Counted from the stretch's first letter, positions 23,382 through 51,742 are shown. The stretch: DNA of 64,000 nt from Bacillota bacterium (GCA_012842395.1 DUSX01000020.1:43413-107412), one strand, 5' to 3'. Made by a program: numbers and translations. The notes: generated by a model not told the origin, from the letters alone.

Positions 23382-23420
23382 ACGAAACGCCGGGTGGGTA
23401 TGTACAGCCTCGGACCGAAT

Positions 23421-27883: not shown

Positions 27884-27886
27884 CCG

Positions 27887-30454: not shown

Positions 30455-30457
30455 CTG

Positions 30458-38554: not shown

Positions 38555-38831
38555 CCCCTATCGCATATCCCCAACCTCATCTCGCACATCCGACCTCGTC
38601 GAACCGTCTCGGGTTCATGTGAGATGTCTTGTCGAGCCAGCCATGGCCAAGGCCCGGACCCTCTTCAACGCCGCTGCCACCTCCCCACTGCCAGGTGCCT
38701 GCCCATGTCCCCGTCCCCGTCCGCTACTGCCCGCTCACCGACCGCTCCCTGCCCGCCTCCCATCTGCTCCCGAAGTGCTCGCAACCCGCTCCGCGCCTGC
38801 CTGCTTGCCTCGTGCCTGACTTACTCGCCGC

Positions 38832-39716
38832 TCACCTGGCCTCCCGCCCCCGCCTGGCCGCTCGCCCGGCCGACCGCCGGAAGTAGAAGTGGTTGGTGGG
38901 CCCGCATCCGTGGCCCAATGAAAGCGAGTTCGCCACCGCCCAGGTGATGTAGTCCTTGGCGGCCCGCAGCGCATCCGGGACCTCCAGGCCCAGGGCGAGA
39001 TATGCCGCTATGGCCGCGGAATACGTACATCCGGTGCCGTGTGTGTTCGCGGTGGCGTAACGCCTGGCGCAGAGCTCGATGAGCTCCTCGCCGTTGAACG
39101 CTATGTCCACCGAATCCCCGGATTGGTCCTGCAGGTGGCCGCCCTTCACCACGACCCACTCCGGCCCCATGTCTTTCAGCCTCTGCGCGGCAAGCCGCGC
39201 GTCCGACGTGCTCTTGATCGCAACGCCCAGGATAGCCTCGGCCTCGGGAATGTTGGGAGTGATCACGGTGGCGAGCGGCAGCAGGCGCCGGACGAGAGCG
39301 TCTCTCGCGTCGGGTGCCAAAAGCGGCGCGCGGGTCTTGCTCACCATCACGGGGTCCACGACCAAGTTCCGCACCGAGTGCCGCTGGATGGCGTCTGCTA
39401 CCGCATCTATGATGGCTGCGGTGGCAAGCATTCCGGTCTTGGCAGCGTCCACCTGCAAGTCGGTCAGGACCGCGTCCAGCTGGGCGACGACGAAGCCCGG
39501 GTCGAGCACGGAGACCCCCGGCACGCCGAGGGTGTTCTGAGCGGTCACGGCGGTGAGCGCGACCGCCCCGAACACGCCGAGAGACGTGAATGTCTTGAGG
39601 TCCGCCTCTATCCCCGCTCCTCCGCCGCTGTCCGACCCGGCGATCGTGAGAGCCACGGGGACTCGCTCGGGCTCGGTGCGCGCGAAATCGGGTGCCATGT
39701 ATCTCGAGATCCTCAC
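38832..39716 (-). CDS. thiD: Hydroxymethylpyrimidine/phosphomethylpyrimidine kinase ThiD
   Basis: VALTIAGSDSGGGAGIEADLKTF...TAQNT...DPVM...TPNIPEAE...VVKGGH...HGTGCT. Confidence 0.9.
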   Translation of the reverse strand: MRISRYMAPDFARTEPERVPVALTIAGSDSGGGAGIEADLKTFTSLGVFGAVALTAVTAQNTLGVPGVSVLDPGFVVAQLDAVLTDLQVDAAKTGMLATAAIIDAVADAIQRHSVRNLVVDPVMVSKTRAPLLAPDARDALVRRLLPLATVITPNIPEAEAILGVAIKSTSDARLAAQRLKDMGPEWVVVKGGHLQDQSGDSVDIAFNGEELIELCARRYATANTHGTGCTYSAAIAAYLALGLEVPDALRAAKDYITWAVANSLSLGHGCGPTNHFYFRRSAGRAARRGREAR

Positions 39717-39760
39717 TGTGAAGTCACCTCGGGCTTTCCTAAACGAAAATACGCTCTGTT

Positions 39761-41071
39761 TCAGCGCGGCATAGAGTAAGATGCGACAGCACTATCCGCT
39801 GGCGTACTAAACCTGGACGCCCACCGGATCATCCCCAATACATAAATCACACTAGCGGCTGTAAGGCTCGGTATCGATGCCCCCGTGGAGAGGCCGTTCT
39901 CAGTACACGCATAGTACGTGACCACACCTGTGACCCACGCAATCATGGCAATGGGGTTCACGCCGTGGACGTACCAGTATGCGCCTCCGCGTTTGAAGAG
40001 CTCCTGAACCGACAGCTTCCTCCGCCTAAGAAGGAAATAGTCCGCCAAGACGATCCCGAACAAGGGCACAAAAACGCCCCCTATGAGCAGAAGGAAACTT
40101 TCATAGCGCTCGATGGGAAAGACGGCCGCCACCAGGGTGCCGATGAACCCAGCCGCAAGAATGAGATGCCCCTCGCGCAACTGCGGGAATAGGTTCTGAG
40201 TGGACACGGCAGTTGAGTACACATCGAGGAAAGCGGTTGTGATCGTAGAGAAAGCCACTATGACCAACGCAACTGCTCCAATCTCCAGCCCTGTGAGAAT
40301 CTCGACTACATCTGCTGTCCCCGCGGCTAAAGAAGAGATTAAGCCAATCGCATACATGAGGAAGCTCGAGACGAAGTATCCTATCCAGCATCCGAAGAAC
40401 GACCCTGTCCCCCCTCTTCCGAACCTTGAGTAGTCGGCGACTAAGGGAAGCCATGATAGAGGCATCGCTATTACCAGGTCAGTCGCGTACCCAAAACCCA
40501 TGCCTCCGCCCTCGTTTGCCGCCTGGAGGCCACCTAGACCGCGCGTTGACAGGAGCCTGTACCCCACATAGAGGCTTAGCACGAGAAGCAGACCAGAGAC
40601 AATAGGCTCGAGCCATCTCCAACCCTTACGGCCCGACCACGCCCAGGCGGTCGTCGCCGCGCCCATCGCTACCACCCACGTCAGGTAGCCTGAGAAGCCC
40701 CAGAGCTGCGAGCTCAGAGCGTTCAGTGCCTTAGCCGCGACGACCAGCATCACGGCCGTCCATCCTACGAGCTGGACCACGTTCAACACAGCCGCCAGAT
40801 ACGAGCCTCTGACTCCGAAAGACGGCCTCACCGAGACCATCGACGGGATCCCGTGATCCGTGCCAACCACACCACCGAGGGCGAGGAGCGTGTTGCCCAG
40901 AAGATGTCCCAAGAAGTTCGCCGCTATTCCCGCCAGAAGACCGGCTGGAGCCAGAAAGCCGCCTGCCAGCACCTCGGCAAGGGATATGCCCGCACCCACC
41001 CATATGAAAAAGAATGCCCCCGGACCCATGGTTCGTTGGTCCACAGGAATTGCTTCAACCTCTGTTGCCAC
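39761..41071 (-). CDS. cytX: NCS1/cytosine-permease-family transporter, putative hydroxymethylpyrimidine transporter CytX
   Basis: A 12-TM-like hydrophobic protein (FFFIWVGAGISLAEVLAGG...). GTG start after GGAGGG. It lies immediately downstream of a TPP riboswitch and upstream of thiD. Confidence 0.7.
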   Translation of the reverse strand: MATEVEAIPVDQRTMGPGAFFFIWVGAGISLAEVLAGGFLAPAGLLAGIAANFLGHLLGNTLLALGGVVGTDHGIPSMVSVRPSFGVRGSYLAAVLNVVQLVGWTAVMLVVAAKALNALSSQLWGFSGYLTWVVAMGAATTAWAWSGRKGWRWLEPIVSGLLLVLSLYVGYRLLSTRGLGGLQAANEGGGMGFGYATDLVIAMPLSWLPLVADYSRFGRGGTGSFFGCWIGYFVSSFLMYAIGLISSLAAGTADVVEILTGLEIGAVALVIVAFSTITTAFLDVYSTAVSTQNLFPQLREGHLILAAGFIGTLVAAVFPIERYESFLLLIGGVFVPLFGIVLADYFLLRRRKLSVQELFKRGGAYWYVHGVNPIAMIAWVTGVVTYYACTENGLSTGASIPSLTAASVIYVLGMIRWASRFSTPADSAVASYSMPR

Positions 41072-41149
41072 GCCTGTCCCTCCTTATTCAAAGACTTGCG
41101 CGACCCTTCTTGCAGGGTTCCTGACCCGATGGCCGGCAATCAGTCGACG

Positions 41150-41188
41150 AACACAACAAAGGAGCCGTGCCACTTGGGTCACGGCTCC
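41150..41188 (-). terminator. Intrinsic terminator, the expression platform of the TPP riboswitch
   Basis: Minus strand reads GGAGCCGTG-ACCCAAGTGG-CACGGCTCC, followed by TTTGTTGTGTT. Confidence 0.75.
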
Positions 41189-41278
41189 TAGACTTGCAGT
41201 CTCGGCGACGAGCTCGGCGCCACGCTCGGACCATAAACCATAAGAGGATGTGAAGCAAGGGCCGCCGGCTGTCTTGCC

Positions 41279-41376
41279 GCCCGCTTCCCTACGGTGGCAT
41301 TACCCACATCAGGTTCAAGGGGTTCGGGTGCACCCGTCTCAGCTCAAGCCACCTCAAACCGCCGCGCCCCACTCGG
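41279..41376 (-). promoter_or_regulatory. TPP (THI-box) riboswitch
   Basis: Minus strand reads GGGGCGC...GCTGAGACGGGTGCACCCGAACCCCTTGAACCTGATGTGGGTAATGCCACCGTAGGGAAGCGG. This matches the THI-box consensus (GGGG.GC..CTGAGA..ACCC..ACCTGAT.TGG.TAATGCCA.CGTAGGGAAG). Confidence 0.92.
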
Positions 41377-41934
41377 CACCGTCGCTCTGTCGCGGTGCTG
41401 CTGGGCAGTGCCGCGCGCTGCGTCGCTTGGTCACTAGAGCTCCGCGCGGCCGCCCTGGCCGCCGACTAGCGCCGCCCGTTGGCTTGGTGGTGGCTTTTGC
41501 TCCCCCACGGAACGGTCACGTATGCATCTTTCACTAGGATTATAGCCCGGCGTTTCCTCTCGCGTCAATGATTCCCTCGAGAAGGCATGGGACCCCGTTT
41601 GCATAACACGCCGGCGGCGTAAGCACCACGCCATGGGGGCTCGGGTCGCCGCCACGAGTACGTTCCCCCGTGAGCCAACGAGCCCCCTCCGAGCACGTCT
41701 TCGTGCGACCGCCTTCTCACGTTAGCAGGCAACAGGCGGTTCGCTCGACCGAGCCTCCCTCCGTCCCCTCCCTTGCTTCAACCCTCCCTCGACGCTCGAC
41801 CTCCGACCTTCGACCCTCGATCTTGCTACAACGGCAGAGCCAGGACCGCAGGGCCAGAACGGAAGAGGAGGAATCCGTTACCCCGCGTCGAAATTCCAGA
41901 AAGGTTGAACAAGAAGTATCTAGCAAGAGTTACA

Positions 41935-42046
41935 TGCTTCTCCGAGTCCCCCGGCCTAAGGTTCGGCGTATAGCTCCAGCTATGGCGGGCGGACCGGCAG
42001 GGTGTGTCGGGAAACGGACACGCCTCCCATCACGGAAAGGAGAGCA
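41935..42046 (+). promoter_or_regulatory. Candidate Moco/Tuco (molybdenum/tungsten cofactor) riboswitch
   Basis: UGCUUCUCCGAGUCC (5' block), hairpin GUGUC-GGGAAACG-GACAC, then GCCUCCC, 5 nt, GGAAAGGAGAGCA. The 5' UGCU-U-CUCC can pair with the 3' GGAG-AGCA (P1). From memory, the block order and spacing match the E. coli moaA leader (...CUUCGCCUCCCGUAUCUGGAAAGGUGU...). Confidence 0.55.
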
Positions 42047-42359
42047 GGCAATCCTGACTGGGTCGCGCCTTGTGTTTCGGCCGGGCCCTGCCGCCTTTTC
42101 GTGGCACCCGGCCTTCGCTATTCCCGGGGTAAGTTCGTTGTCTCCGGGACGGGTACGAGAGAGCATGGCTGTGCGACCTTTGGGCCGGCTCATTATGCTA
42201 CGCTGTTCCGGGGCTTTATAGATAGCCAACCTCGAAATCAAACGAGCATCGGGCGCTTTCTCCGTGCCCTCGTACGTATACCGCGGCTCCTTTTGCTGTG
42301 CGCGGTCTAACTTCGAGCTTGGTTATCTGTAAAAGATGCTGTTCCGAGGAGGCTGCGAG

Positions 42360-43859
42360 ATGCGACGTCCTAGCGATGCGGTGTTCCAGTGCCAACCCAC
42401 GATGTTGATGTCGCGGGCACCCGAGGGAGTCGTACGGAACGGGGCCGGCTTTTCCTGCAAGAAGGCCACGAGGCCAGCGCTAGTCTTGCTGGTCTCGTTT
42501 GCGGTGCTCGCAGCGTGCGTCCTCGGCGTGGCTCTGGTGGGACACTGCGCCGGCCTATCCGGTCTATCCGGCGCATCCAGCCTGCCCGCCCTGTCCTGCC
42601 TACCCGGTCTATCTGGCCTTCCGGGCTTGTCCGGCTTGTCAGGCCTGTCCGGCCTACCCGGCTTCCCTGGGCTTCCCGGCCTCTCGCAGGGCGGCCTCAC
42701 CTTCGCCGTGGTGGGTGACAGTCAAGGGAGGACCCCGGTCTGGGAACGCATCGTGGACGCCCTCAACGCGGCACGCCCCGCTTTCGTCCTGCACTGCGGG
42801 GACATGGTCGCGTCGGGAGCGCGCGAGCAGTATGAGGAGTTCGTTAAGCAGGTCGAGAGGCTCCGCATGCCCTGGTACGCCGTGCCGGGGAACCACGACG
42901 TCCGCGGGGAGGGCGCGAAGCTGTTCACGGAGTTCACCGGCAAGAACCGATATTACTCGTTCGTGGAGAAGGGTTACCGTTTCATCGGGCTGGATAGCTC
43001 CGCGGCGGCGCTCGACGCCGAGCAAATGGCGTGGCTCGAGCGAGAGCTCGCGCAAGGCGGCCCGAAGTTCGTATTCATGCACGTCCCTCTCTTCGACCCT
43101 CGTCCGGGCGGCGATCATTGTTTCCTTGACGCCGAACAGGCGCGCCGCCTCCAGCGCCTCTTTCGGGACCACGAGGTGCTGGCGGTCTTCAGCGGACACG
43201 TCCACCTCTTCAGCAGCCGGACGCTGGACGGCGTCACGTACGTGACGACAGGCGGCGCCGGCGCGCCTCTCTATGCGTCCCGTGCCGAGGGCGGGTTCTA
43301 CCACTACGCGCTCGTCCGTGTGAGCGGCAACCGGGTGAGCGTCGAGGCGAAGCAGGTCGCCGTCAAAATAGAGGAGCCTCGCGTCAGGGTGATCGGGCCG
43401 AAGGGCGAAAAGGAGTTTACCCTCGGTGACCTGGCCCTCCTGCCGTCGGTAGAGGCCGCGAGCGCGTTCGAGAACCAATTCGGAAACGTGTCGGGCGGCG
43501 GTACTTACAAGGGCGTCCTCGTGGCGACCCTCCTCGAGCAGGTCGGAGGCATCCGCCCAGGCCAGACCCTCGTGGTCCGTTGCACCGATGGCTATTCGCA
43601 GGAGTTCGGATACGAGAACGTGCATGTCTCGAAGGATTGGGCCAAGCTGCAGGGCCCCATGGTCCTCGCTTACGAGAAGGACGGCAAGACTCCCCCTGAG
43701 TGGGCCGAGGGATCGCGCTTGATCTTCGCGCCGCCTGACGGCGTGTACGGCAACGACGACTGCCGGTTGACGTCCCTTCCCGGGCAGGGATGGAACGTCT
43801 ACAAGTCGGCGGGCGGGCGCTGGGCGCGCAACGTGTCGGTGATCGAGGTCAGGCCGTGA
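42360..43859 (+). CDS. Membrane-anchored metallophosphoesterase with a (G-L-S/P)n repeat linker and a C-terminal sulfite-oxidase-fold (molybdopterin-binding-like) domain
   Basis: Start ATG 42360, 7 nt after GAGGAGG. TM segment is ALVLLVSFAVLAACVLGVALV. The repeat reads GLSGLSG...GLPGLSGLSGLSGLPGFPGLPGLS. Phosphoesterase motifs are VVGDSQG, HCGDMV, PGNHD, FMHVP and SGHVH. The C-terminal domain reads YKGVLVATLLEQVGG...RCTDGYSQEF...MVLAYEKDGK...VSVIEV. Confidence 0.8.
   Translation: MRRPSDAVFQCQPTMLMSRAPEGVVRNGAGFSCKKATRPALVLLVSFAVLAACVLGVALVGHCAGLSGLSGASSLPALSCLPGLSGLPGLSGLSGLSGLPGFPGLPGLSQGGLTFAVVGDSQGRTPVWERIVDALNAARPAFVLHCGDMVASGAREQYEEFVKQVERLRMPWYAVPGNHDVRGEGAKLFTEFTGKNRYYSFVEKGYRFIGLDSSAAALDAEQMAWLERELAQGGPKFVFMHVPLFDPRPGGDHCFLDAEQARRLQRLFRDHEVLAVFSGHVHLFSSRTLDGVTYVTTGGAGAPLYASRAEGGFYHYALVRVSGNRVSVEAKQVAVKIEEPRVRVIGPKGEKEFTLGDLALLPSVEAASAFENQFGNVSGGGTYKGVLVATLLEQVGGIRPGQTLVVRCTDGYSQEFGYENVHVSKDWAKLQGPMVLAYEKDGKTPPEWAEGSRLIFAPPDGVYGNDDCRLTSLPGQGWNVYKSAGGRWARNVSVIEVRP
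42552..42686 (+). repeat. About 15 tandem 9-nt units (GGYCTDYCN) encoding Gly-Leu-Ser/Pro triplets
   Basis: ggcctatcc ggtctatcc ggcgcatcc ... ggcttgtcc ggcttgtca ggcctgtcc ggcctaccc ggcttccct, read directly. Confidence 0.85.
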
Positions 43860-43905
43860 CATAGAATCACAGAGCAAGTCTCACCAGACCAAAGGAGGAT
43901 GAGGG

Positions 43906-44955
43906 ATGAGAAGGAATCGAGCGAACCGTGTGCGTGTGGTGCTTGCCGCGACCCTGGCGTCGGCCCTCGTGACCCTCGTGGCGACGGCTGGCGCACTCTT
44001 CCCAAGCGTCGCGTTGGCCTCGGACGACGCGTGGCAGGTCGAGGTCTTGGGCGGCGGCAAGACCGTTGTGCTCACGCAGTCCGATCTGGAGGGCATGTCG
44101 GCGGTGACGGCAGAGGCGGCGTTCCTGAAGACCACGGGAAAGATCGAGGGACCGTTCGAATTCAAGGGCGTATACATGGAAGACATCCTCGCGAGGGTCG
44201 GGGGCATCAGCCCGTCCGAGGCGATCCGCGTCACCGCGCGCGACGGCTACGCGATGACCTACACCTACTCCCAGGTCGGCGGGAACGTCCTGTCTTACAA
44301 TGAAAGCGGCGAGGTCCTCCGTACTGGTGGACTCGCCATGATCCTCGCGTACGAGTCGGGCGGCGACGCGGCGGCCGCCGAGAAGCTGCCGCGAATCGTG
44401 TACATCGCCAAGGACGGCTCTGCGCGCCCGCCCATCACCGACGGCCATTTCTGGACGAAGGCCGTGGCGAAGATCGAGGTCGTCTCGGGCGTGGAGGACT
44501 GGTCGATCAAGCTCAGCGGCGTGGAGCAGGCGCTTTTGGACAGGTCCACGTTCGAGAGCACTGTGACCTGCCCCTCGACGCCTCACCCCGCCGTGGTGTG
44601 GGAGACCACTGACAAGGAGGGCAACAAAGAAGTATATGAGGGTCTCCCGCTTTGGATCGTCGTCTCCATGATAGACGGGGGCGACGCGCCCGGAGGGCAT
44701 TACCTGTTCAACGACGACCTTGCGCGCCAAGGGTACAAGGTGCGGGTGATCTCGAGGGACGGCTACAGCGTGGACCTCGAGGCTTCGCTCGTGGCGCGTA
44801 ACAACAACATCATCCTGGCCTATAAGAAGAACGGCGAGCCCTTGCCCGAAGAGGACGCACCTCTCATGCTCGCCGGCAAAGACCTGCCGTCGCGAAAGTA
44901 CATGGTCAAGCAGATCGCCGAGCTGTCCCTGGTGGACCTGCCGGTCGGGAAGTAG
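43906..44955 (+). CDS. Secreted protein with two tandem sulfite-oxidase-fold (molybdopterin-binding-like) domains
   Basis: Signal peptide MRRNRANRVRVVLAATLASALVTLVATAGALFPSVALA. Copy a reads FKGVYMEDILARVGG...ARDGYAMTY...MILAYESGG...VAKIEVV. Copy b reads YEGLPLWIVVSMIDGG...SRDGYSVDL...IILAYKKNGEPL...IAELSLV. Confidence 0.75.
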   Translation: MRRNRANRVRVVLAATLASALVTLVATAGALFPSVALASDDAWQVEVLGGGKTVVLTQSDLEGMSAVTAEAAFLKTTGKIEGPFEFKGVYMEDILARVGGISPSEAIRVTARDGYAMTYTYSQVGGNVLSYNESGEVLRTGGLAMILAYESGGDAAAAEKLPRIVYIAKDGSARPPITDGHFWTKAVAKIEVVSGVEDWSIKLSGVEQALLDRSTFESTVTCPSTPHPAVVWETTDKEGNKEVYEGLPLWIVVSMIDGGDAPGGHYLFNDDLARQGYKVRVISRDGYSVDLEASLVARNNNIILAYKKNGEPLPEEDAPLMLAGKDLPSRKYMVKQIAELSLVDLPVGK

Positions 44956-45030
44956 CTCTGCGGTGCACAGGCGCGGCGGTGCAGCCCGCGTTCTACAGGG
45001 AGCGCCGCCAAGTTCCATGAGGGCTGCGGC

Positions 45031-46350
45031 ATGGTCTCTCCCTCCCCAAGGAATCGCCGGGCCAATGAAGCCAAGGAGGCATACGGGGCAGTGACGTCCA
45101 GAACATCTGTGAGAGGACGGGACTACTATTTCAGCACGCGCGACCTCGTCCTCATCGCTGTGGTCAGCGCCGCGGGAGGGGTCCTCAGTACCTACGTGGG
45201 GTATCTGGGGAACCTGCTCAACAAGGCTTTCGGCGTGCCGTTCGGCGCCGGGCAGTGGATGGCGGGGCTTCACGTGTTCTGGTTCGTGCTCGTGCGCGTG
45301 GCCGTGGGACGGACGGGCGCCGGCACCCTGGCAGGCGTCATCAAGGGCGTGGTTGAGATGTTCACGGGCAGCACCCACGGGCTGCCCATAGTGTTCATCT
45401 CGGCCGTCGAGGGCCTCCTGGTGGACGTGGTGCTTCTTCCGTTCCGGAGACCGTCGCTCCCGGCGCTCTGTTTGGCGGGGGGAGTTGCCTCGGCATCGAA
45501 CGTCCTGGTGTTCCAGGCGCTCTACTTTTCCGGCGTGTCCTGGGGCTACATCGCCTTGATGACCCTGTTCGCATTCGGGTCGGGAGTTGTGTTCGGGGGC
45601 TACTTCGCCGACGGCGTGCTGGCCATACTCGAAGAAGCGCGCATCATACGGCTGAAGGCGAAGTCGAGCGCGGCAGGTATGCCACCATCGCGCACGCAGG
45701 GGCCCGCGGCAAGCACCGGGGCCCCTGAGGCAAATGCCCCCGGGGCCGCAGCCATGGCTCCGACCGCGTCCGGCGCGCCTACCGCGGCCGGTGCGGCCGC
45801 CGGGACCGGGGCGGAGGCGTGGGGTGCGGCCGGGACCCGGGCTCGGGCCAGAGCTGAGGTCGAGCCTATCGCAAGGCGATCGTCCAGGCGGTCTAGCAAA
45901 ACCCGACTCGCCCTGACGCTCCTCATGTCACTGGCGCTGGCTGGAGGCGCCGTCTACTATTACGTCGAAGTCTTCGAGCCCTTCTGGACCGGCCCGACAT
46001 GCTCAGTCGAAGGCAAGGTGGCCAATCCCTATGTGTACCGGCCTGCAGACTTCGAGAATGAGGCCGTCACGGTGATGGCTGAGCTCAAGGGGCAGGTCAC
46101 CTACGTGCCACCCACCGAATACACGGGTGTCCCGCTCGCTCGGATCATCGAAAAAGCCCGCCCCGACGTGTCAGCTGCACGCGTGCGCGTACTGGCGTCC
46201 GACGGGTACGAGGCCGAGTTCGGTCTCGATGACATCATGAAGAACCGCGCCGTGATCCTGGTCCGGGACGCCGAAAACCTGCGGCTCATCGCCACGGGCT
46301 ACGAGGGCGGGTGCTGGGTACGGATGGTAACGCGGCTGGTGGTAGAGTGA
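45031..46350 (+). CDS. ECF transporter S (substrate-capture) component fused, via a low-complexity linker and an extra TM helix, to a sulfite-oxidase-fold-like domain
   Basis: The N-terminal ~200 aa are multi-TM (LVLIAVVSAAGGVLSTYVGYLGN...GLHVFWFVLV...GLLVDVVLLPF...). The linker is AKSSAAGMPPS...AAGTGAEAWGAAG. A TM segment LALTLLMSLALAGGAVYYYV follows. The domain reads YTGVPLARIIEKA...ASDGYEAEF...VTRLVVE. Confidence 0.7.
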   Translation: MVSPSPRNRRANEAKEAYGAVTSRTSVRGRDYYFSTRDLVLIAVVSAAGGVLSTYVGYLGNLLNKAFGVPFGAGQWMAGLHVFWFVLVRVAVGRTGAGTLAGVIKGVVEMFTGSTHGLPIVFISAVEGLLVDVVLLPFRRPSLPALCLAGGVASASNVLVFQALYFSGVSWGYIALMTLFAFGSGVVFGGYFADGVLAILEEARIIRLKAKSSAAGMPPSRTQGPAASTGAPEANAPGAAAMAPTASGAPTAAGAAAGTGAEAWGAAGTRARARAEVEPIARRSSRRSSKTRLALTLLMSLALAGGAVYYYVEVFEPFWTGPTCSVEGKVANPYVYRPADFENEAVTVMAELKGQVTYVPPTEYTGVPLARIIEKARPDVSAARVRVLASDGYEAEFGLDDIMKNRAVILVRDAENLRLIATGYEGGCWVRMVTRLVVE

Positions 46351-46419
46351 ACCGTGCGATGACGCAGCTTGCGCTGAAATGAGGCGCGTGGTGACCGGCT
46401 CATCCCGGATCGTGGCGGA

Positions 46420-48279
46420 ATGAGGCGTTTTGAGAGCATGGAGAAGGTTGTCAGAGTCTCGAACCTAACTGTCCGGTACCCAGGGAACGCCGCACCGGCA
46501 CTGAATAGCGTCGACCTAGCGCTCGAGGCCGGTGAATGCATGGTCGTGAGCGGTCCGAGTGGCTGTGGCAAGTCCACGCTCGCACTGTGCCTTGCGGGCT
46601 TCATACCGCACGCCATCGACGCGGACGTGACCGGCTCCGTGCGTGTGGCCGGTCTCGATCCAGCGCAGACCAGCGTTTATCATCTTGCCGAGTTCGTTGG
46701 TTTGGTGCAGCAGGACCCAGAGGCCCAGTTCTGCACCATGCGTGTGGACGACGAAGTAGCCTTCGGGCCGGAGAACCTGATGTGCGCGCCTGATGAAATT
46801 GCTCGCCGCGTGACGTGGGCGCTTGAGGCCGCGGGCGCATCTCACCTTCGCGGGCGCAGGCTCGCGGAGCTATCCGGGGGCGAAAAGCAGCGCGTCGCCC
46901 TCGCGGCCGTGCTCGCCATGCGTCCCAGCGTGCTTATTCTTGACGAGCCCACCGCCCACCTCGACCCGAGGGCCACCGGGGCGCTCGTGCGCCTCCTCGG
47001 GGAGATGCAGTCGCAGCTCGGCCTGGGGATCATCATCCTGGAACATAGGCCGGAGCGGTTTTTCGGCATCGCCAACCGGGTGGTGCGGTTATCCGAGGGC
47101 GCCGTCGCTTTCGACGGCCCGCCGCGCGAGCTCGCCGGGCCCGGGCGATGGGGTAACCCCGCGTGCCTCTCATGCGGCGACACTGCATCTGGCAGAAGGT
47201 CGCCAGGTGGCGGCGGGCTCCTCGCTCGGCGTACTGGACGCGCCGCGGTCGCCGAGAAGGGCGGCGAAGAAGACGCCGAAGAAGACGCCGAAGGACCGTG
47301 CCCCTGGACCAGCCACCCCTCGTCGGTTCGCGCTCCGGTTCTGGGCGGCGTTCAGGGCCGCCCGCAAGGCCGCGACGCGCAATGCCTCGCGCACGACGGC
47401 GGCGACGATGCGCAGGGCGCACCAAGCCCGCGCCCAGGTGCGGGCCCGGCCTCAGGCACAGGCGCAGGCCCAGGCACAGGCGCAGGTGTAGGCCCAGGCT
47501 CCGGGCCAGGCCAAGGGGACGCGCGGCAAGACACGGGACTTGGCACGCCTGGCCCGCCTCTCCTGCAGGTGTGCAGCCTCACCCAGAGATACGGGAACAA
47601 GATCGTCCTCCAGGATGTGGACCTGGAGGTCCGGAGCGGCGAGATCGTCGGAGTGATGGGCGACAACGGGAGCGGCAAGACGACCTTGCTCCTCAGCATA
47701 ATGGGGATCCTCCGGCCCGTTTCCGGGAGGGTCATGCTGGAGGGCGAGGACATCACGAACGTCCCGGTCTCGGCGCGCGCGAGGCGGATCGGGATGGTGT
47801 TCCAGAACCCCAACCACCAGCTTTTTACCGACCAAGTCTGGCGCGAGGTGGTCGCGGGGCCGCTCAGTCGTGGGGTGCCGGAGGCGGCGTGCCGTCCCGC
47901 GGCCGAGGCGCTTCTCGACCGGTTTGACCTCCTCGCGCTTCGCGCGAGCCACCCGTTGACCCTTAGCTACGGGCAGAAGCGCAGGCTGAACCTGGCGGCG
48001 ATCATGGTGAGCGAACCTAGCTTGCTGCTACTCGACGAGCCGTTCGTAGGACAGGATGCCCCGCGGGCGCGGGACTTGGCGCGCCTCCTCAATGACCTGG
48101 CGTGCTCGGGCAAGGGCATCCTCTTGGTGGGGCACGAGCCGAGCATCATGGCACAGTGTTGCGACCGCTTGATTTTCATGGACGGCGGGCGGATCGTGGT
48201 GGACGCGCCTGCGCGGGAAGCGTTTGCTGATTTCGAGAGGATGGGCTTGTGTGACTACGTGCCAAGGGCGTGGGCTTAG
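46420..48279 (+). CDS. Fused tandem ABC ATPase (EcfA-EcfA'-like) with a ~140-aa low-complexity inter-domain linker
   Basis: Two sets of motifs. First set: GPSGCGKST / LSGGEKQRVALA / LILDEPTAHLD. Second set: GDNGSGKTT / LSYGQKRRLNLA / LLLDEPFVGQD. Confidence 0.85.
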   Translation: MRRFESMEKVVRVSNLTVRYPGNAAPALNSVDLALEAGECMVVSGPSGCGKSTLALCLAGFIPHAIDADVTGSVRVAGLDPAQTSVYHLAEFVGLVQQDPEAQFCTMRVDDEVAFGPENLMCAPDEIARRVTWALEAAGASHLRGRRLAELSGGEKQRVALAAVLAMRPSVLILDEPTAHLDPRATGALVRLLGEMQSQLGLGIIILEHRPERFFGIANRVVRLSEGAVAFDGPPRELAGPGRWGNPACLSCGDTASGRRSPGGGGLLARRTGRAAVAEKGGEEDAEEDAEGPCPWTSHPSSVRAPVLGGVQGRPQGRDAQCLAHDGGDDAQGAPSPRPGAGPASGTGAGPGTGAGVGPGSGPGQGDARQDTGLGTPGPPLLQVCSLTQRYGNKIVLQDVDLEVRSGEIVGVMGDNGSGKTTLLLSIMGILRPVSGRVMLEGEDITNVPVSARARRIGMVFQNPNHQLFTDQVWREVVAGPLSRGVPEAACRPAAEALLDRFDLLALRASHPLTLSYGQKRRLNLAAIMVSEPSLLLLDEPFVGQDAPRARDLARLLNDLACSGKGILLVGHEPSIMAQCCDRLIFMDGGRIVVDAPAREAFADFERMGLCDYVPRAWA

Positions 48280-48985
48280 TAGGCTCAACCCGCTCGCCAA
48301 TCTGACGCTACTGGTCTCCTTCTGCGTGCTCGCCATTTGCGCGCAAAGCCCTGCACAAGCAGGAATTCTATTTGCGGCGGTCCTCGCCGGCCATGTGGCG
48401 AGCCGAATCCCGCCTTCGATCCTGTGGCGCAGAGTGCGCGGGATAGTTATCTTTGCGCTCGTGCTTTTCCTCAGCCAGCTCTTCCTCGCAAGCGGCGGAG
48501 AGGTGGCGTGGGGCGCCCGCGCTGCAAGCGGGATCCAGATGTCCCTGCGCTTCCTCAACATCGTCCTAGCGAGCCACTTATTCGTTAGCACAACCTCAGC
48601 GGAGGATCTCGCCTATACCCTCATGCGGCTGGGGCTTCCTTATCGGTATGGATTTACCCTCCTCATCGCCATGCGCTTCGTCCCCTATTTCCGGCTGCAA
48701 TCGAACACGGTGTTGCAGGCCCAAATGGTGCGCGGCATCGGCGTGGACCGCCCGTCCCTTAGGGGCATTTGGTGCATGGCCAGGTACACGTTGGTTCCGC
48801 TTGTCGTGACTGCGCTCGGCAAAGTGGAGAGCCTGGCCATCTCCATGGAGGGCCGCTGTTTCGGCCTGCACCCACGACGGACGTTCCTCCGCACCGTGCC
48901 GTTCCGCCCGGCCGATGCCGTCGTCATGGCAGCGGCCATCGCGGCCGCCGCGGCTGCAGCCACAGCCACGCTGCTCACCAGATGA
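48224..48985 (+). CDS. ecfT: ECF transporter transmembrane (T) component, CbiQ/EcfT family
   Basis: Multi-TM protein containing ...RLGLPYRYGFTLLIAMRFVPYF...MVRGI... (the EcfT Ala-Arg-Gly-type region). It overlaps the end of the ATPase gene. The start is ambiguous (TTG 48224 or GTG 48251). Confidence 0.75.
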   Translation: MLISRGWACVTTCQGRGLSRLNPLANLTLLVSFCVLAICAQSPAQAGILFAAVLAGHVASRIPPSILWRRVRGIVIFALVLFLSQLFLASGGEVAWGARAASGIQMSLRFLNIVLASHLFVSTTSAEDLAYTLMRLGLPYRYGFTLLIAMRFVPYFRLQSNTVLQAQMVRGIGVDRPSLRGIWCMARYTLVPLVVTALGKVESLAISMEGRCFGLHPRRTFLRTVPFRPADAVVMAAAIAAAAAAATATLLTR

Positions 48986-49088: not shown

Positions 49089-50300
49089 CTATAGCCATTC
49101 GAGGGCCCGGTCCGCGATGGAGGCGATGACACCGCGGCGCAGGGAAATGGCTCCCTCAGGACACATTTCGTGGCAGCAGAAACACCGTATGCACCGATGG
49201 CGGTCTATCATTGCAGTCCCCCGCGCGATCGCCGCCGTCCCCGCCGCCGTCCCCGCGGAACCCACAGTGATGGCGCCGGGCGGGCACGACTCTGCGCACA
49301 CCCCGCACGCGACGCACTTCGCAGCGTCCACCCAGGGGATTGCGGTGACGTGCTTACGGACAGCCCTGACAACCGTGAATATGCCCGAAGTGGCTCGCGC
49401 CGCGGGCGGCAAGGCGAAGCCCGTCACGTGGAACTCTTCCGGGGGCGCCCCCACCACTTCTATCTCTTCAGGCCGCGTGCTGCCAGCGCTAACCTCCCGC
49501 GCCGCGCGCAGGTACGGCACGCGCATGGGGTCCACCCCGGCGAGCCGAAGGGCCACGACATCCAAGGCAACCGGGTCCTCCGACGCCAGTATGGCTCCGA
49601 TGTGCCTCGGCCGCCCGTGCGAAGGTCCGTCGCCGTCCATGGCTACGACCGCGTCGAGGATCGACAGGCGGGGCTTCACGAGGCCGGCAAGGTCCAACAA
49701 CATCAGGGAAAAGGCGCGGGGATCGTTGTACCTCAGATGCATGCGCAGTTTCTCGGCCCCTGGGATGCACCCGAAGAGGTTCTTCACGGCGCCCGTGAAC
49801 GTCATGAACCCATGGGTCTTCATCTTGCCGATGTTGATGACGGCCGAGGCGTCAACGATCGGCCGGGCAAGGACGAACTCCTTGCATACCCGGCCGGCCG
49901 GGTGCTTGCGCGCGACCCCGTCGTCGAAGGACACGAGGTCCACGCCCGCTTCACGGCAGACCGCGGCTATCCCGCACTTCGCCGCGACGCCGGACACGCT
50001 GCCGTGTCCGGGGCTGTCTCCCACCACGACCTTGGCCCCGGCCTGCTTGAACAAATCGAGAACGGCGCCTACGACAGCGGGATGGGTCGTCACCGCCCTC
50101 TCGGGCTGGTAGGGCGAGAGCATATTCGGTTTGACAACCACAAACCCGTCACGCGGACGGGGCAAGAACGCCTCGACGCCGCCGAGGAGGTCAGTGGCCA
50201 ACCTAACCGCGTGGGAGACATTGTCCTGCGAATATGACCTGCATGTAGCCAGAGCAACCTTGATCTTCAGCGTGATCCCTCCAGTCCGCATCCATGGCAA
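49089..50300 (-). CDS. DUF362 domain protein with C-terminal 2x[4Fe-4S] ferredoxin domain
   Basis: ...VVVKPNMLSPYQPERAVTTHPAVVGAVLDLF...VVGDSPGHG..., with C-terminal CVACGVCAESCP and CIRCFCCHEMCP. The start is ambiguous (TTG 50300, ATG 50291, or CTG after GGAGGG). Confidence 0.75.
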   Translation of the reverse strand: MPWMRTGGITLKIKVALATCRSYSQDNVSHAVRLATDLLGGVEAFLPRPRDGFVVVKPNMLSPYQPERAVTTHPAVVGAVLDLFKQAGAKVVVGDSPGHGSVSGVAAKCGIAAVCREAGVDLVSFDDGVARKHPAGRVCKEFVLARPIVDASAVINIGKMKTHGFMTFTGAVKNLFGCIPGAEKLRMHLRYNDPRAFSLMLLDLAGLVKPRLSILDAVVAMDGDGPSHGRPRHIGAILASEDPVALDVVALRLAGVDPMRVPYLRAAREVSAGSTRPEEIEVVGAPPEEFHVTGFALPPAARATSGIFTVVRAVRKHVTAIPWVDAAKCVACGVCAESCPPGAITVGSAGTAAGTAAIARGTAMIDRHRCIRCFCCHEMCPEGAISLRRGVIASIADRALEWL

Positions 50301-50715: not shown

Positions 50716-51588
50716 CTAGAACGCGATGCTGAGCGACAGCCTGTGGCTGTCGGGCAGCACGTTGTGGGCCTGGTAAGCGTAGTCCGCGGAGAAACCGCTG
50801 AACCTGACGCCCAAGCCCGCCGTGAGCGAGGTTTGCCCCGCGCCCCAGGAACACCCGCCTCGCACGGCTACGTGGCCGATCATGTACTCCGCGCCGGCGC
50901 GCAGCTCGTAGTCGCCTTTCACGACAGCGTCAGCAGCGAGCAGGAGGTCTTCGATCGGCTTCGCGGAGACTCCAACGCCCCACGAGCGATCGAAGGCGTC
51001 CTCGCTGCCGCTGCTGTAGCGTACGCCTCCGACCACGTTGCGGGCAACAGCGCCAACCTTTACCATCCCTGTGTCGTACACAAGGCCTATGTCTCCCGTG
51101 AACCCGGACCCCGCATTGTCGGGCAGGGTTTGTGAGTAGTACTTGACGGACCCGCCCACACCCAGTCTGGGGAGCACCTCGGCGCCGTACGCGGCGACTG
51201 CCGTGTACTCGCGCATCCCGAAATAACCGGTGACGTTGGCGAATTCGTCGGTGCTCTCTATGGAGGACGCGTCAAGCAGAAGTGCTCCCGCCCCTATGCT
51301 CTTTTGAGCGTATCCGAAGGCCATGTAGTTCACCGCTCCATACTGGCTAGTATAGAGCGATGTGACGTGATGCCCCTCCACGAACGCGAGACCAGCGGGG
51401 TTGTAGTAGAACGCCGACGCGTCGTCTGCCACGGCGATGAACGCCCCGCCCATCCCGAGGGCTCTCGCGCCCACCCCGATGTCCATCATAGCAGCTGTGC
51501 CGACGGGGTCTTGCTCGGCCCACGCCACCCCTGCGGGCAACAGGGCGAAAACCACCGCAAACACCGATATCGCTATCTTGACTCGCAT
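50716..51588 (-). CDS. PorV/PorQ-like outer-membrane beta-barrel protein
   Basis: Start ATG 51588 after GAGGAGGG. Signal peptide is MRVKIAISVFAVVFALLPAGVAWA. GARALGMGGAFIAVADDASAFYYNPAGLA is the N-terminal signature I associate with the PorV/PorQ family. Alternating beta-strand pattern, with a C-terminal aromatic residue (F). Confidence 0.6.
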   Translation of the reverse strand: MRVKIAISVFAVVFALLPAGVAWAEQDPVGTAAMMDIGVGARALGMGGAFIAVADDASAFYYNPAGLAFVEGHHVTSLYTSQYGAVNYMAFGYAQKSIGAGALLLDASSIESTDEFANVTGYFGMREYTAVAAYGAEVLPRLGVGGSVKYYSQTLPDNAGSGFTGDIGLVYDTGMVKVGAVARNVVGGVRYSSGSEDAFDRSWGVGVSAKPIEDLLLAADAVVKGDYELRAGAEYMIGHVAVRGGCSWGAGQTSLTAGLGVRFSGFSADYAYQAHNVLPDSHRLSLSIAF

Positions 51589-51742
51589 TTGGTCGCCCTC
51601 CTCATTGCCTGAAGCCTCAGGAGATCCCGGGTCGCATTCATTCATATCGAGTCAACCGGCCAGTGGTGCTGCGCCGGTCGCGTGGCCGCGCCGCATAGCG
51701 CGTCAGCGCCAAGTCACGCCGGCGCGGCACCACTCACCTGCG

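What the first reader, a model, noticed from the sequence alone, without database searches (positions are those of the whole stretch)
42360..48985. Operon combining an ECF transporter with four copies of a sulfite-oxidase-fold domain: a possible undescribed Mo/W-cofactor-related uptake or salvage system
Seen in sequence. Five co-directional, closely spaced genes:
- a membrane-anchored metallophosphoesterase fused to domain X;
- a secreted protein with X-X in tandem;
- an ECF S component, linker and extra TM helix fused to X;
- a fused EcfA-A';
- EcfT.

The four X copies share blocks: (Y/F)(K/E/T)G(V/L)...(L/I)(L/I)....G, xDGY(S/A/E)xx(F/Y/L), (M/I)(V/I)LAY (in 3 of 4), and a terminal ..IEV/LVV strand. 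No Cys is conserved across the copies; copy 2a has none.

Established knowledge. The pattern W/YxGVxL..LL, DGY, LLAYxxNGxPL, KW...IEL is the core of the molybdopterin-binding domain of the sulfite oxidase/YedY(MsrP) family (Pfam PF00174), where a Cys ligates Mo. ECF transporters are known for vitamins and Ni/Co. Known molybdate/tungstate importers are ModABC, TupABC and WtpABC, which are SBP-dependent type I ABC systems.

Inference. Here the Moco-fold domains look like extracytoplasmic, possibly non-catalytic binding modules tethered to an ECF S component. That would be an SBP-like accessory for a transporter class that normally has none. Together with the upstream Moco-like riboswitch this suggests uptake or salvage of a pterin/Mo/W species, or delivery of a substrate to a surface Moco enzyme. 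I know of no described system with this architecture.
Basis: partly seen in the sequence, partly recalled or inferred. Interest (0 to 1): 0.8.

Follow-up and report, generated by a model that had tools for sequence, protein, structure and literature searches.

The report
Riboswitch-controlled ECF importer with tethered pterin-binding domains
This operon encodes a vitamin-type (ECF) importer whose membrane subunit carries an outward-facing pterin-binding domain; it sits behind a tungsten/molybdenum-cofactor riboswitch and recurs in anaerobic bacteria and archaea, so it is a strong, still unproven candidate for the first prokaryotic uptake system for that cofactor.

Summary
A Moco/Tuco riboswitch (RF01055, 69 bits, no P3 stem) precedes five co-directional genes. 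They encode a membrane-anchored metallophosphoesterase-X fusion, a secreted X-X protein, a YkoE-like ECF S component joined by a seventh TM helix to X, fused EcfA-A', and EcfT.

X has the sulfite-oxidase fold. Its closest solved relatives are the small, Cys-less periplasmic pterin-binding PruR proteins. The only motif invariant across X domains (D-G-Y) aligns with PruR's pterin-contacting N-x-Y.

The module is conserved in 80 loci examined, out of 259 species genomes with a relative: Bacillota, Thermoplasmata, Thorarchaeota and others.
- 24 of 34 informative bacterial loci have the P3-less riboswitch upstream.
- tupABC is often adjacent.
- One phosphoesterase family (GDxQG) is almost always present.
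- A dedicated small kinase is present in 11 of 11 complete archaeal loci, but not in the window.
- Giant surface proteins with 5-8 X domains carry their own riboswitches.

The best reading (about 0.45) is salvage of the tungsten/molybdenum pyranopterin cofactor: surface capture, phosphoester cleavage, ECF import and, where the kinase exists, re-phosphorylation. Rivals are tungstate/molybdate uptake, another pterin, and cofactor delivery to surface enzymes.

I found no published description. This is a new variant of the ECF kind, of high interest, with the substrate unproven.

The parts
41928..42058 (+). Moco/Tuco riboswitch aptamer (RF01055), P3-less variant
   Evidence: 69.2 bits against a gathering score of 36, full model 1-135. 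The Rfam alignment shows the P3 stem (model positions about 58-72) deleted. The 32 of 34 related riboswitches whose P2/AGGG junction my pattern located are equally P3-less.
42079..42113 (+). Conserved GC-rich hairpin just after the aptamer; candidate expression platform or terminator
   Evidence: A 13-bp hairpin in both the MFE and centroid folds. It is conserved in L001-L004 with pair-preserving changes (UGCCGC/GUGGCA against UGCCAC/GUGGCG). The U-tract is weak, the simple terminator scan did not find it, and the folding z-score is not significant. Its function is inferred.
42360..43859 (+). g1: membrane-anchored metallophosphoesterase fused to X1 (X1 is about 43368-43856)
   Evidence: PF00149 6e-19, PF00174 0.012. 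One TM segment. GAGGAGG lies 7 nt before the ATG at 42360. The catalytic motifs GDxQG/GD/GNHD/HxP/GHxH are invariant or nearly so in 64 family members. Nearest solved relatives by sequence: GpdQ 3.7e-9, Rv0805 1.2e-6.
43906..44955 (+). g2: secreted tandem X protein. X2a (about 44029-44493) is Cys-less; X2b (about 44494-44940) carries the class-conserved Cys222
   Evidence: Signal-peptide-like N-terminus. AlphaFold pLDDT 86. Best Foldseek matches are PruR 7kom/7kos/7rkb (E 1.6e-6 to 3.7e-5, target TM-score 0.65-0.76), then YedY and SorA. C222 is invariant in 30 homologues.
45031..46350 (+). g3: ECF S component (YkoE-like, residues about 30-205), low-complexity linker (206-285), seventh TM helix (288-314; 45892-45972) and X3 (320-439; 45988-46347)
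   Evidence: PF09819 2e-18. YkoE 5edl 7.8e-16 and target TM-score 0.78. AlphaFold pLDDT 82 with six helices plus one. The fusion is conserved in 81 aligned homologues, with 38 invariant positions.
46420..48279 (+). g4: fused EcfA-EcfA' ATPase with a low-complexity insert
   Evidence: TIGR04520 2.2e-94 (residues 11-238) and TIGR04521 9.8e-96 (residues 394-607); two ABC_tran domains.
48224..48985 (+). g5: EcfT (CbiQ family). The start codon is uncertain because it overlaps g4
   Evidence: PF02361 6.8e-21, TIGR02454 2.6e-16.

Best explanation
This is a dedicated (group I) ECF importer specialised for the pyranopterin part of the tungsten/molybdenum cofactor (Tuco/Moco, molybdopterin or a close derivative). 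In other words, it is a cofactor salvage system.

Shown:
- The operon lies behind a P3-less Moco-family riboswitch, the variant that Regulski et al. 2008 associate with the tungsten cofactor.
- It encodes a YkoE-like S component, EcfAA' and EcfT.
- Four copies of a small sulfite-oxidase/PruR-fold domain are placed on the phosphoesterase, on a secreted protein and on the S component.
- The whole module is conserved across distant anaerobic bacteria and archaea.

Inferred mechanism:
1. When the cofactor is scarce, the riboswitch lets the operon be expressed.
2. Sec-exported X domains, which are apo when they reach the outside, capture cofactor released by other cells. In relatives these sit on wall-anchored proteins with 5-8 X copies. 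The Cys-bearing XB class may hold the metal; the Cys-less XA and XS classes hold the pterin through the invariant Asp and Tyr.
3. The surface phosphoesterase trims a phosphoester or phosphoanhydride, for example the GMP/CMP of the dinucleotide forms and/or the terminal phosphate.
4. The X domain tethered to the S component hands the ligand to the S pocket, which is lined by invariant Tyr/Asn/Gln/His/Glu on the outer side.
5. EcfAA'T powers import.
6. Where the small kinase is encoded (all complete archaeal loci and some bacterial ones, but not this window), it re-phosphorylates the imported pterin. Adjacent tupABC supplies tungstate.
For: - Riboswitch link: RF01055 at 69 bits in the window. 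It lies upstream on the same strand in 24 of 34 bacterial loci with at least 3.5 kb of upstream sequence. All those readable are P3-less, the class associated with tungsten-cofactor genes in PMC2408646.
- Separate riboswitches sit in front of giant X-only surface proteins in L019, L026 and L058.
- X resembles pterin binders. The best PDB sequence hit of the X profile is PruR 7kom (1.1e-10), and the best Foldseek hits of X-X are PruR proteins.
- The invariant D-G-Y aligns with PruR N-D-Y. PMC11194511 identifies those residues as the pterin-hydrogen-bonding Asn and the stacking Tyr.
- X proteins lack Tat signals, so they must acquire any ligand outside the cell.
- The S component is related to the thiamine binder YkoE, that is, to organic-cofactor S components.
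- One phosphoesterase family with an intact metal-ligand set is present in 31 of 34 bacterial and 15 of 16 archaeal informative loci. Its nearest solved relatives are phosphodiesterases.
- A dedicated kinase-fold protein with intact catalytic residues is found in 11 of 11 complete archaeal and 8 of 26 bacterial loci. It is a narrow family of 103 relatives.
- A phosphatase outside plus a kinase inside is the established pattern for salvage of phosphorylated vitamins (general knowledge).
- tupABC/MOT1 lie alongside in L019, L026, L058, L073 and L078 (TupB and TupC in L045). Tungstate uptake is therefore already provided there, and the ECF system looks complementary.
Against: - No ligand was tested, and the substrate assignment rests on context and fold.
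- PruR binds small pterins and is said to be too shallow for Moco. X3 is even shorter.
- Moco and molybdopterin are very labile, although all hosts here appear to be anaerobes.
- The kinase is absent from the window and its closest clade. Its best solved relatives are Bud32/RIO-type atypical kinases, not small-molecule kinases.
- No Moco biosynthesis gene is linked to the loci.
- I could not test whether host genomes lack moaA/moaC.
- Ten of 34 informative bacterial loci have no riboswitch.
- Riboswitch control fits tungstate uptake equally well.
Confidence: 0.45

Rival explanations
1. High-affinity uptake of inorganic tungsten or molybdenum (tungstate, molybdate or their thio-forms). The X domains would act as extracytoplasmic oxyanion or metal traps feeding an ECF S component. 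This would be the first ECF oxyanion importer.
For: - The riboswitch class also controls mod/tup transporters.
- The genes are fused into one string with tupABC and a MOT1-family permease in L026, and two TupA-like genes lie directly upstream of S-X in L058. A ModD-like gene sits beside S-X in L045.
- Conserved Asp/Glu/His/Cys residues in X and in the S pocket could coordinate W or Mo, as carboxylates do in WtpA (my recollection).
- Metallophosphoesterases bind tungstate and molybdate as inhibitors (general knowledge).
Against: - X is closest to pterin binders, and its only invariant residues align with PruR's pterin contacts.
- No conserved basic residues were seen in X.
- A conserved, apparently catalytically competent phosphoesterase and a kinase have no role in oxyanion uptake.
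- tupABC next door would make the system redundant.
- The S component belongs to an organic-cofactor family.
Confidence: 0.2
2. Uptake of some other pterin or phosphorylated metabolite that feeds or modulates cofactor metabolism, for example a precursor or breakdown product that is not molybdopterin itself.
For: PruR-like pockets bind small pterins such as monapterin and neopterin. X3 has only about 120 residues. The YkoE family handles small heteroaromatic vitamins. The phosphoesterase-plus-kinase logic fits any phosphorylated metabolite.
Against: Moco is made from GTP through cPMP, not from simple pterins (established pathway), so a Tuco-type riboswitch in front of a simple-pterin importer would be hard to explain. 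The link to tupABC and the riboswitch-controlled X-only surface proteins tie the system specifically to W/Mo cofactor supply.
Confidence: 0.12
3. The X proteins, especially the Cys-bearing XB class, are real surface Mo/W-pterin enzymes exported without cofactor. The ECF-like module and its tethered X would deliver or insert cofactor, or a substrate, at the cell surface.
For: XB keeps a Cys roughly where I recall the sulfite-oxidase Mo ligand to lie, in 87% of 99 instances. Moco riboswitches are also found in front of Moco-dependent enzymes.
Against: All characterised ECF transporters are importers (general knowledge). Proteins with 5-8 tandem X domains, with SLH, PKD or Shr-like-HID anchors and no redox partner domains, look like capture proteins. 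The Mo-co dimerisation domain PF03404 was not among the Pfam hits down to E = 1, and no heme or Fe-S domain was seen in g1-g3. No Tat signals.
Confidence: 0.07
4. A PruR-like pterin-sensing module that regulates transporter activity in response to extracellular pterin signals, rather than binding the transported substrate.
For: PruR is a periplasmic pterin sensor that acts by binding a membrane partner. X is tethered to a membrane protein.
Against: No GGDEF/EAL partner is present. X is multiplied on wall proteins and on a hydrolase, which fits capture rather than sensing. The riboswitch already provides regulation.
Confidence: 0.03

Closest known systems
YkoEDC, a group I ECF transporter for thiamine/HMP (S component YkoE, PDB 5EDL)
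   Same: The S component has the same fold and Pfam family (PF09819; hmmsearch 7.8e-16; target TM-score 0.78). Both have dedicated EcfA/EcfT genes in the same operon and riboswitch control of a cofactor importer.
   Different: Here the riboswitch is of the Moco/Tuco type, not TPP. The S component has a seventh helix and an extracytoplasmic domain. The pocket signature differs (VPFGAGQ, GLH, GSTHG against YkoE's residues). Surface binding proteins, a phosphoesterase and, in relatives, a kinase are added.
PruR periplasmic pterin-binding proteins (PDB 7KOM, 7KOS, 7RKB; PMC11194511)
   Same: A small sulfite-oxidase-like fold without the Mo-ligand Cys, located outside the cytoplasm. These are the best sequence and structure matches to X. 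The pterin-contacting N-x-Y corresponds to X's D-G-Y.
   Different: PruR is a proteobacterial signalling protein that partners the DcpA cyclase/phosphodiesterase. X is fused to a transporter, a hydrolase and wall proteins in Bacillota and archaea, has Asp in place of Asn, occurs in tandem arrays, and has a Cys-bearing subclass.
Sulfite oxidase family enzymes (SorA, SoxC, YedY/MsrP; PF00174)
   Same: The core fold and the YxGV, DGY and WVK blocks are shared.
   Different: There is no Mo-ligand Cys in three of the four copies, no dimerisation or redox domains, and Sec rather than Tat export. X has 120-160 residues, against roughly 170-240 for the Moco-binding domain (the latter figure is my recollection).
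TupABC, ModABC and WtpABC tungstate/molybdate importers
   Same: They fall under the same riboswitch family and share the physiological purpose of supplying the W/Mo cofactor. tupABC is often adjacent.
   Different: Those are type I ABC importers with a soluble binding protein and take up oxyanions. This is an ECF (type III) system whose binding modules have a pterin-binding fold.
Surface relay systems for cofactors in cell walls (Isd/Shr NEAT-domain heme relay; B12 surface capture proteins)
   Same: Multiple copies of one small binding domain are spread over wall-anchored, secreted and membrane-tethered proteins that lead to an ABC importer. Relatives even carry Shr-like HID domains.
   Different: The binding fold, ligand and transporter class all differ. 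The relay itself is inferred here, not shown.
Dietary Moco uptake in Caenorhabditis elegans (PMC7849362, PMC9793310)
   Same: It is the only documented case, in the literature I could search, of an organism taking up preformed Moco.
   Different: It is an animal with an unknown transporter. No prokaryotic counterpart is described.

Membership tests
ECF (energy-coupling factor) transporter, group I | Small integral-membrane S component with the six-helix S fold | tested here: met
   PF09819 2e-18. YkoE 5edl 7.8e-16. Foldseek target TM-score 0.78. Six helices in the model.
ECF (energy-coupling factor) transporter, group I | EcfT scaffold and two EcfA ATPase domains encoded with the S component | tested here: met
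   PF02361 6.8e-21; TIGR04520/TIGR04521 about 1e-95. Present in 31/31 (EcfA) and 30/31 (EcfT) bacterial loci and 15/15 archaeal loci with enough downstream sequence.
ECF (energy-coupling factor) transporter, group I | No extracytoplasmic substrate-binding protein; the S component alone captures the substrate | tested here: not met
   The S component carries a seventh helix and a folded 120-residue domain predicted to lie outside. Secreted and anchored paralogues of that domain are co-encoded. This is the feature that makes it a variant.
ECF (energy-coupling factor) transporter, group I | ATP-dependent import of a micronutrient | not testable with these tools
   Needs transport assays.
Sulfite oxidase / PF00174 Moco-binding domain | SUOX Moco-domain fold | tested here: met
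   Foldseek matches to SorA, SoxC, nitrate reductase and YedY at probability 1.00. Profile against SorA 3.5e-10. Pfam scores are at or below the gathering score: 26.0, 21.2 and 15.6 bits against 24.
Sulfite oxidase / PF00174 Moco-binding domain | Conserved Cys that ligates Mo | tested here: not met
   Absent from the XA and XS classes (X1, X2a, X3). Present only in XB (X2b; 87% of 99 instances).
Sulfite oxidase / PF00174 Moco-binding domain | Cofactor loaded in the cytoplasm, so extracytoplasmic members are exported by Tat | tested here: not met
   A loose twin-arginine pattern occurs in only 5 of 129 X proteins, and it is not conserved among g2 homologues.
PruR-type pterin-binding proteins | Small secreted SUOX-like domain lacking the Mo-ligand Cys | tested here: met
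PruR-type pterin-binding proteins | Pterin contacts: Asn-x-Tyr plus a C-terminal Trp sandwich | tested here: inconclusive
   D-G-Y aligns with N-D-Y of 7kom. A Trp in G..W(V/A)(K/R) is conserved in XA and XS but not XB.
PruR-type pterin-binding proteins | Operon with a DcpA-type GGDEF/EAL partner; Pro-Trp motif in place of the Cys | tested here: not met
   No such partner is adjacent to the module in the window or appears in the Pfam-annotated neighbourhoods examined. The Pro-Trp motif was not examined.
Moco/Tuco riboswitch (RF01055) | Covariance-model score above the gathering threshold over the full aptamer | tested here: met
   69.2 bits against 36, model positions 1-135.
Moco/Tuco riboswitch (RF01055) | Absence of P3 (the proposed Tuco-sensing subclass) | tested here: met
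   P3 columns are deleted in the Rfam alignments of the window and of both L058 copies. The same short junction is seen in the 32 of 34 related copies whose junction was located. Ligand specificity itself is not testable here.
Metallophosphoesterase (calcineurin-like) hydrolases | Five metal-ligand motifs | tested here: met
   GD-x-Q, GD, GNHD and H-x-P are invariant in 64 proteins; the first His of GH-x-H is present in 61 of 64. Gln replaces the usual His of motif I, as in ADPRibase-Mn-like NDP-X diphosphatases (PMC4334965). Nearest solved relatives are GpdQ and Rv0805. Activity was not tested.
TupABC/ModABC/WtpABC oxyanion importers | Periplasmic binding protein of the TupA/ModA/WtpA fold plus a type I permease | tested here: not met
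   None is present in the window operon. In relatives they occur as separate neighbouring genes.

The most novel reading that the evidence does not exclude
Anaerobic bacteria and archaea, including Asgard Thorarchaeota, possess a complete salvage pathway for the tungsten/molybdenum pyranopterin cofactor. Its proposed steps are a cell-surface relay of PruR/SUOX-fold domains, extracellular cleavage by a dedicated GDxQG phosphoesterase, import by an ECF transporter whose S component has its own tethered binding domain, and re-phosphorylation by a previously unknown 'molybdopterin kinase'. Moco/Tuco would then be an exchangeable vitamin in anoxic communities.
Probability: 0.3. Interest if true: 0.92.

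Novelty: new variant of a known kind. Interest (0 to 1): 0.82.

Why it matters
The molybdenum/tungsten cofactor is generally treated as too labile to be shared, so every user is assumed to make its own. The only documented exception I found is dietary uptake by nematodes, whose transporter is unknown.

A riboswitch-controlled importer built around pterin-binding domains would give the first molecular handle on cofactor exchange between microbes. That is relevant to syntrophic and methanogenic communities, which depend on tungsten enzymes such as formate dehydrogenases and aldehyde oxidoreductases.

Whatever the substrate turns out to be, the system breaks the textbook rule that ECF transporters work without extracytoplasmic binding proteins. 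It also points to three families with testable new activities: the X domains, the GDxQG phosphoesterase and the small kinase. Cultured hosts are available for experiments: Thermovorax subterraneus DSM 21563, Anoxynatronum buryatiense Su22 and Gelria sp. Kuro-4.

Tried and rejected
- Two phosphoesterase families. I first thought two unrelated families (CpdA-like and purple-acid-phosphatase-like) had been recruited to the same operon slot. Aligning 64 proteins showed a single family with shared signature motifs, some members having an extra N-terminal domain.
- X proteins as Tat-exported Moco enzymes. Rejected: a loose Tat pattern occurs in only 5 of 129.
- Linked Moco biosynthesis genes. Crude motif searches of all locus ORFs for MoaA, MoaC, MoaE, MoeA, MogA and MobA gave nothing except one generic radical-SAM protein in L045. 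The window has no Moco genes either. These patterns were written from memory and are weak evidence.
- A genome-wide test of whether hosts lack moaA/moaC. Not possible with these tools, because only 20-kb loci are retrievable.
- Kinase fusions that would reveal its substrate. None: all 103 relatives are stand-alone.
- The phosphoesterase as an ADPRibase-Mn family member. Rejected: only the D-x-Q motif is shared, and 2NXF is not among the PDB hits.
- The simple terminator scan found nothing convincing between riboswitch and g1. The conserved hairpin was found by folding and alignment instead.
- Literature searches for ECF plus Moco, tungsten or molybdopterin returned only irrelevant papers.
- The Rodionov 2009 ECF survey could not be read under the PMC identifier I tried, which I had recalled from memory.


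Full report
**1. What is in the window**

On the + strand, RF01055 (the Moco/Tuco riboswitch) lies at 41928-42058. It scores 69.2 bits against a gathering score of 36 and covers the whole model. A conserved GC-rich hairpin follows at 42079-42113. It is kept in the four closest loci with pair-preserving substitutions and is a candidate expression platform. Its U-tract is weak and its function is only inferred.

About 300 nt downstream, a GAGGAGG Shine-Dalgarno sequence precedes the ATG at 42360. Five co-directional genes follow, spaced by 46, 75, 69 and -56 nt.

- g1: a TM anchor, a collagen-like low-complexity run, a metallophosphoesterase (PF00149, 6e-19) and a C-terminal X domain.
- g2: a signal peptide and two X domains.
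- g3: a PF09819 S component (2e-18), a roughly 80-residue disordered linker, an extra helix and an X domain.
- g4: a fused EcfA-EcfA' (TIGR04520/TIGR04521, about 1e-95).
- g5: EcfT.

The four X copies are related well beyond chance: BLASTP 2e-12 and 0.002, and hhalign probability 92%.

**2. What the parts are**

AlphaFold models built on deep alignments are confident (S-X pLDDT 82, X-X pLDDT 86). The membrane part of g3 has six helices and matches the thiamine-binding S component YkoE (5EDL). Foldseek gives a target TM-score of 0.78, and a profile search gives 7.8e-16.

S components are known to have both termini in the cytoplasm. The additional helix (residues 288-314) is preceded in all homologues by an Arg/Lys-rich stretch. 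It should therefore place X3 outside the cell. This is an inference from topology rules, not a measurement.

X has the sulfite-oxidase Moco-domain fold (SorA, SoxC, nitrate reductase, YedY). Its most complete matches are the PruR proteins, which are small periplasmic pterin binders that lack the Mo-ligand Cys. A sequence profile of 16 diverse X domains finds PruR 7KOM as its best PDB hit (1.1e-10), ahead of SorA (3.5e-10).

Across X types the only invariant positions are a Gly and the D-G-Y motif. D-G-Y aligns with N-D-Y of PruR. The PruR paper identifies that Asn as hydrogen-bonding to the pterin and that Tyr as stacking on it (PMC11194511).

Three X classes emerge:
- XA (X1, X2a) has no Cys.
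- XS (X3, on the S component) has no class-conserved Cys at the position of the XB Cys.
- XB (X2b) has a Cys in 87% of 99 distinct instances. It lies about 23 residues before the Y.G.PLW block. From my memory of the sulfite-oxidase sequence this is roughly where the Mo-ligand Cys sits, but I did not check it by superposition.

X proteins almost never carry a twin-arginine motif (5 of 129). They are therefore exported unfolded and cannot bring a cofactor loaded in the cytoplasm. This argues that they are ligand-capturing modules rather than resident Moco enzymes.

**3. Conservation elsewhere**

The S-X fusion has at least 490 relatives among 90%-identity clusters. Among 1.84 billion 50%-identity cluster representatives there are about 40 full-length clusters. 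Relatives occur in 259 GTDB species genomes. The hosts include Bacillota (Syntrophomonadaceae, Pelotomaculum, Dethiobacteria, Thermovorax, Anoxynatronum), Thermoplasmata/Methanomassiliicoccales, Thorarchaeota, Bipolaricaulota and Thermotogae. The window itself encodes an FeFe hydrogenase.

I labelled the ORFs of 80 loci using seed proteins. The recurrent module is:

[riboswitch] - phosphoesterase (with or without X) - X proteins - S-X - EcfAA' - EcfT - (kinase)

- The phosphoesterase is present in 31 of 34 bacterial and 15 of 16 archaeal loci with enough upstream sequence.
- It is a single family. GDxQG, GD, GNHD and HxP are invariant in 64 proteins, and GHxH nearly so.
- Its nearest solved relatives are the phosphodiesterases GpdQ and Rv0805.
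- The Gln in motif I is also the hallmark of ADPRibase-Mn-type NDP-X diphosphatases (PMC4334965). That is a lead, not a membership.
- Many relatives add wall-anchored proteins with 5-8 X domains, up to 2126 aa, carrying SLH, PKD or Shr-like-HID domains.

**4. The link to the W/Mo cofactor**

I built a covariance model from six Rfam-verified aptamers. It found 36 Moco-family riboswitches in 84 loci. Rfam scans of 14 loci agreed with it.

A riboswitch lies upstream on the same strand in 24 of 34 bacterial loci with at least 3.5 kb of upstream sequence. I take such riboswitches to number only a few per genome (general knowledge, not counted here), so this is an enormous enrichment.

The window's aptamer lacks the P3 stem, and so does every related aptamer whose junction I could read. 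Regulski et al. 2008 found this variant associated with tungsten-cofactor genes (PMC2408646).

In L019, L026 and L058 the giant X-only proteins have a second riboswitch of their own.

TupA/TupB/TupC genes adjoin the module in L019, L026, L058, L073 and L078, and TupB and TupC in L045. In L026 a single string reads riboswitch - TupA - TupB - TupC - MOT1-family permease - phosphoesterase - S-X - EcfAA' - EcfT.

**5. A component the window lacks**

A protein of about 240 residues with a kinase fold sits next to the ECF genes in 11 of 11 archaeal loci with both flanks and in 8 of 26 bacterial ones. Pfam assigns it to APH/RIO1, and the catalytic Lys, Glu, D..N and DFE residues are intact. In L080 it is the first gene after the riboswitch.

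It is a narrow family: 103 relatives among 5.8 billion proteins, all stand-alone. Its best solved relatives are Bud32, TP53RK and RIO2, with APH-type small-molecule kinases weaker. Its substrate is therefore unknown. The window's clade has no copy nearby.

**6. Most likely mechanism**

Taken together, the following fit the standard logic of salvaging a phosphorylated organic cofactor:
- a cofactor-sensing riboswitch;
- pterin-binder-like domains that must load outside the cell;
- an S component from an organic-vitamin family;
- a conserved surface phosphoesterase;
- a cytoplasmic kinase, where present;
- neighbouring tungstate importers.

The logic is to capture the cofactor, trim the phosphate or nucleotide outside, import it, and re-phosphorylate it inside. 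I therefore favour salvage of the tungsten/molybdenum pyranopterin cofactor or a close derivative (confidence about 0.45). In this reading the multiple X domains act as a wall-to-membrane relay that ends at the X tethered to the S component.

The following steps are inferred, not shown: the outward orientation, ligand identity, the relay, the phosphoesterase substrate, the kinase's role and the riboswitch's OFF logic.

Points against this reading:
- PruR pockets are described as too shallow for Moco.
- The cofactor is labile.
- No Moco biosynthesis genes are linked.
- The kinase is not universal.
- Ten of 34 informative bacterial loci lack the riboswitch.

**7. Rivals**

- Tungstate/molybdate (or thio-form) uptake, about 0.2. 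It fits the regulation and the tup/MOT1/ModD neighbours. It leaves the pterin-binder homology, the phosphoesterase and the kinase unexplained, and it would be redundant with the adjacent tupABC.
- Another pterin or phosphorylated metabolite, about 0.12. It fits the small pocket but not the Tuco-type riboswitch, because Moco is made from GTP through cPMP.
- Surface Mo/W enzymes supplied by the system, about 0.07. This would explain the XB Cys. It conflicts with the importer nature of ECF systems, with the tandem arrays, and with the lack of redox domains.
- A PruR-like sensing role, about 0.03.

**8. Comparison with known systems, and novelty**

The system is a member of the ECF transporter class: the S, T and A components all pass their tests. 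It violates the class hallmark of having no extracytoplasmic binding protein.

X is a member of the SUOX-fold superfamily. It is not a sulfite-oxidase-type enzyme, because the Cys, Tat export and partner-domain tests all fail. It is nearest to PruR but is not a PruR orthologue, since there is no DcpA partner and the architecture differs.

I found no paper describing a prokaryotic Moco, Tuco or molybdopterin transporter, or this architecture. Riboswitch-regulon surveys list no Moco uptake category (PMC3766115). A 2026 pterin review states that how pterins cross membranes is unknown (PMC13259868). Only nematode dietary Moco uptake is documented. The searchable library is incomplete, so prior description cannot be excluded.

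I rate this a new variant of a known kind, with high interest (0.82).

Noticed in passing
window 35309-41381 (-): A TPP riboswitch (RF00059, 41269-41381, 64 bits) precedes a thiamine salvage/biosynthesis string on the minus strand: cytX (39761-41071), thiD (38832-39716), a thiE-like gene (36756-37991) and an AIRS-family, thiL-like gene (35309-36793). It is divergent from the Moco-riboswitch operon, so two cofactor riboswitches face away from each other across about 550 nt.
   Followed up: partly
window 22542-34072 (-): A BREX type-1-like defence locus: BrxA, PglZ, a BrxHI helicase, the PglX methyltransferase and BrxC (DUF6079), by PADLOC and Pfam hits.
   Followed up: partly
window 2406-7436 (-): Three genes of a HydABC-type (NuoF/NuoE-like plus FeFe hydrogenase large subunit) putative electron-bifurcating hydrogenase. 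They indicate an anaerobic host.
   Followed up: no
window 51743-60928 (-): A 3061-residue ORF with a subtilase S8 domain followed by many PKD/Ig-like repeats, probably a giant surface protease. A UPF0164-like gene follows at 50716-51645.
   Followed up: partly
window ~42555-42690, ~45650-45890, ~47140-47540 (+): Lineage-specific low-complexity expansions sit inside three genes of the operon: a PGLSGLSG collagen-like run in g1, and Ala/Pro/Gly-rich linkers in g3 and in EcfAA'. They make g3 439 aa where homologues are about 355 aa.
   Followed up: partly
L080 15245-19403: A second P3-less Moco riboswitch precedes a different, unfused ECF S component (PF12822, 178 aa). A small ORF and a molybdopterin-dependent aldehyde oxidoreductase follow. 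This may be another Moco-linked S-component family.
   Followed up: partly
L008, L014, L017/L090, L045, L077, L081 (e.g. L081 944-5072): A MotA/ExbB-like gene plus a DUF2149 gene are flanked by X-domain surface proteins with CHB_HEX_C_1/Fn3_assoc/Cu_amine_oxidN1 domains, next to the ECF module. This hints at an energised surface step. In L081 and L017 it lies outside the riboswitch-controlled unit.
   Followed up: no
L045 9983-12264: In this Dethiobacter MAG, S-X has no EcfAA'T beside it. Instead it is followed by a ModD-like quinolinate-phosphoribosyltransferase-family gene on the opposite strand. tupBC and a radical-SAM gene lie upstream.
   Followed up: partly
L092 10354-16560: The giant X-repeat protein and the phosphoesterase of a Pelotomaculum-like contig carry Shr-like HID domains (known from streptococcal heme receptors) and PKD repeats.
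   Followed up: no
L003 (JBLNCC010000025.1): This contig is titled as a Betaproteobacteria MAG, but in the aligned riboswitch and leader region it is nearly identical to the window and to Bacillota loci. It is probably a mis-binned contig.
   Followed up: no
window 49089-50300 (-): A DUF362 protein with two 4Fe-4S motifs converges on the end of EcfT. It is not conserved next to the module elsewhere.
   Followed up: no
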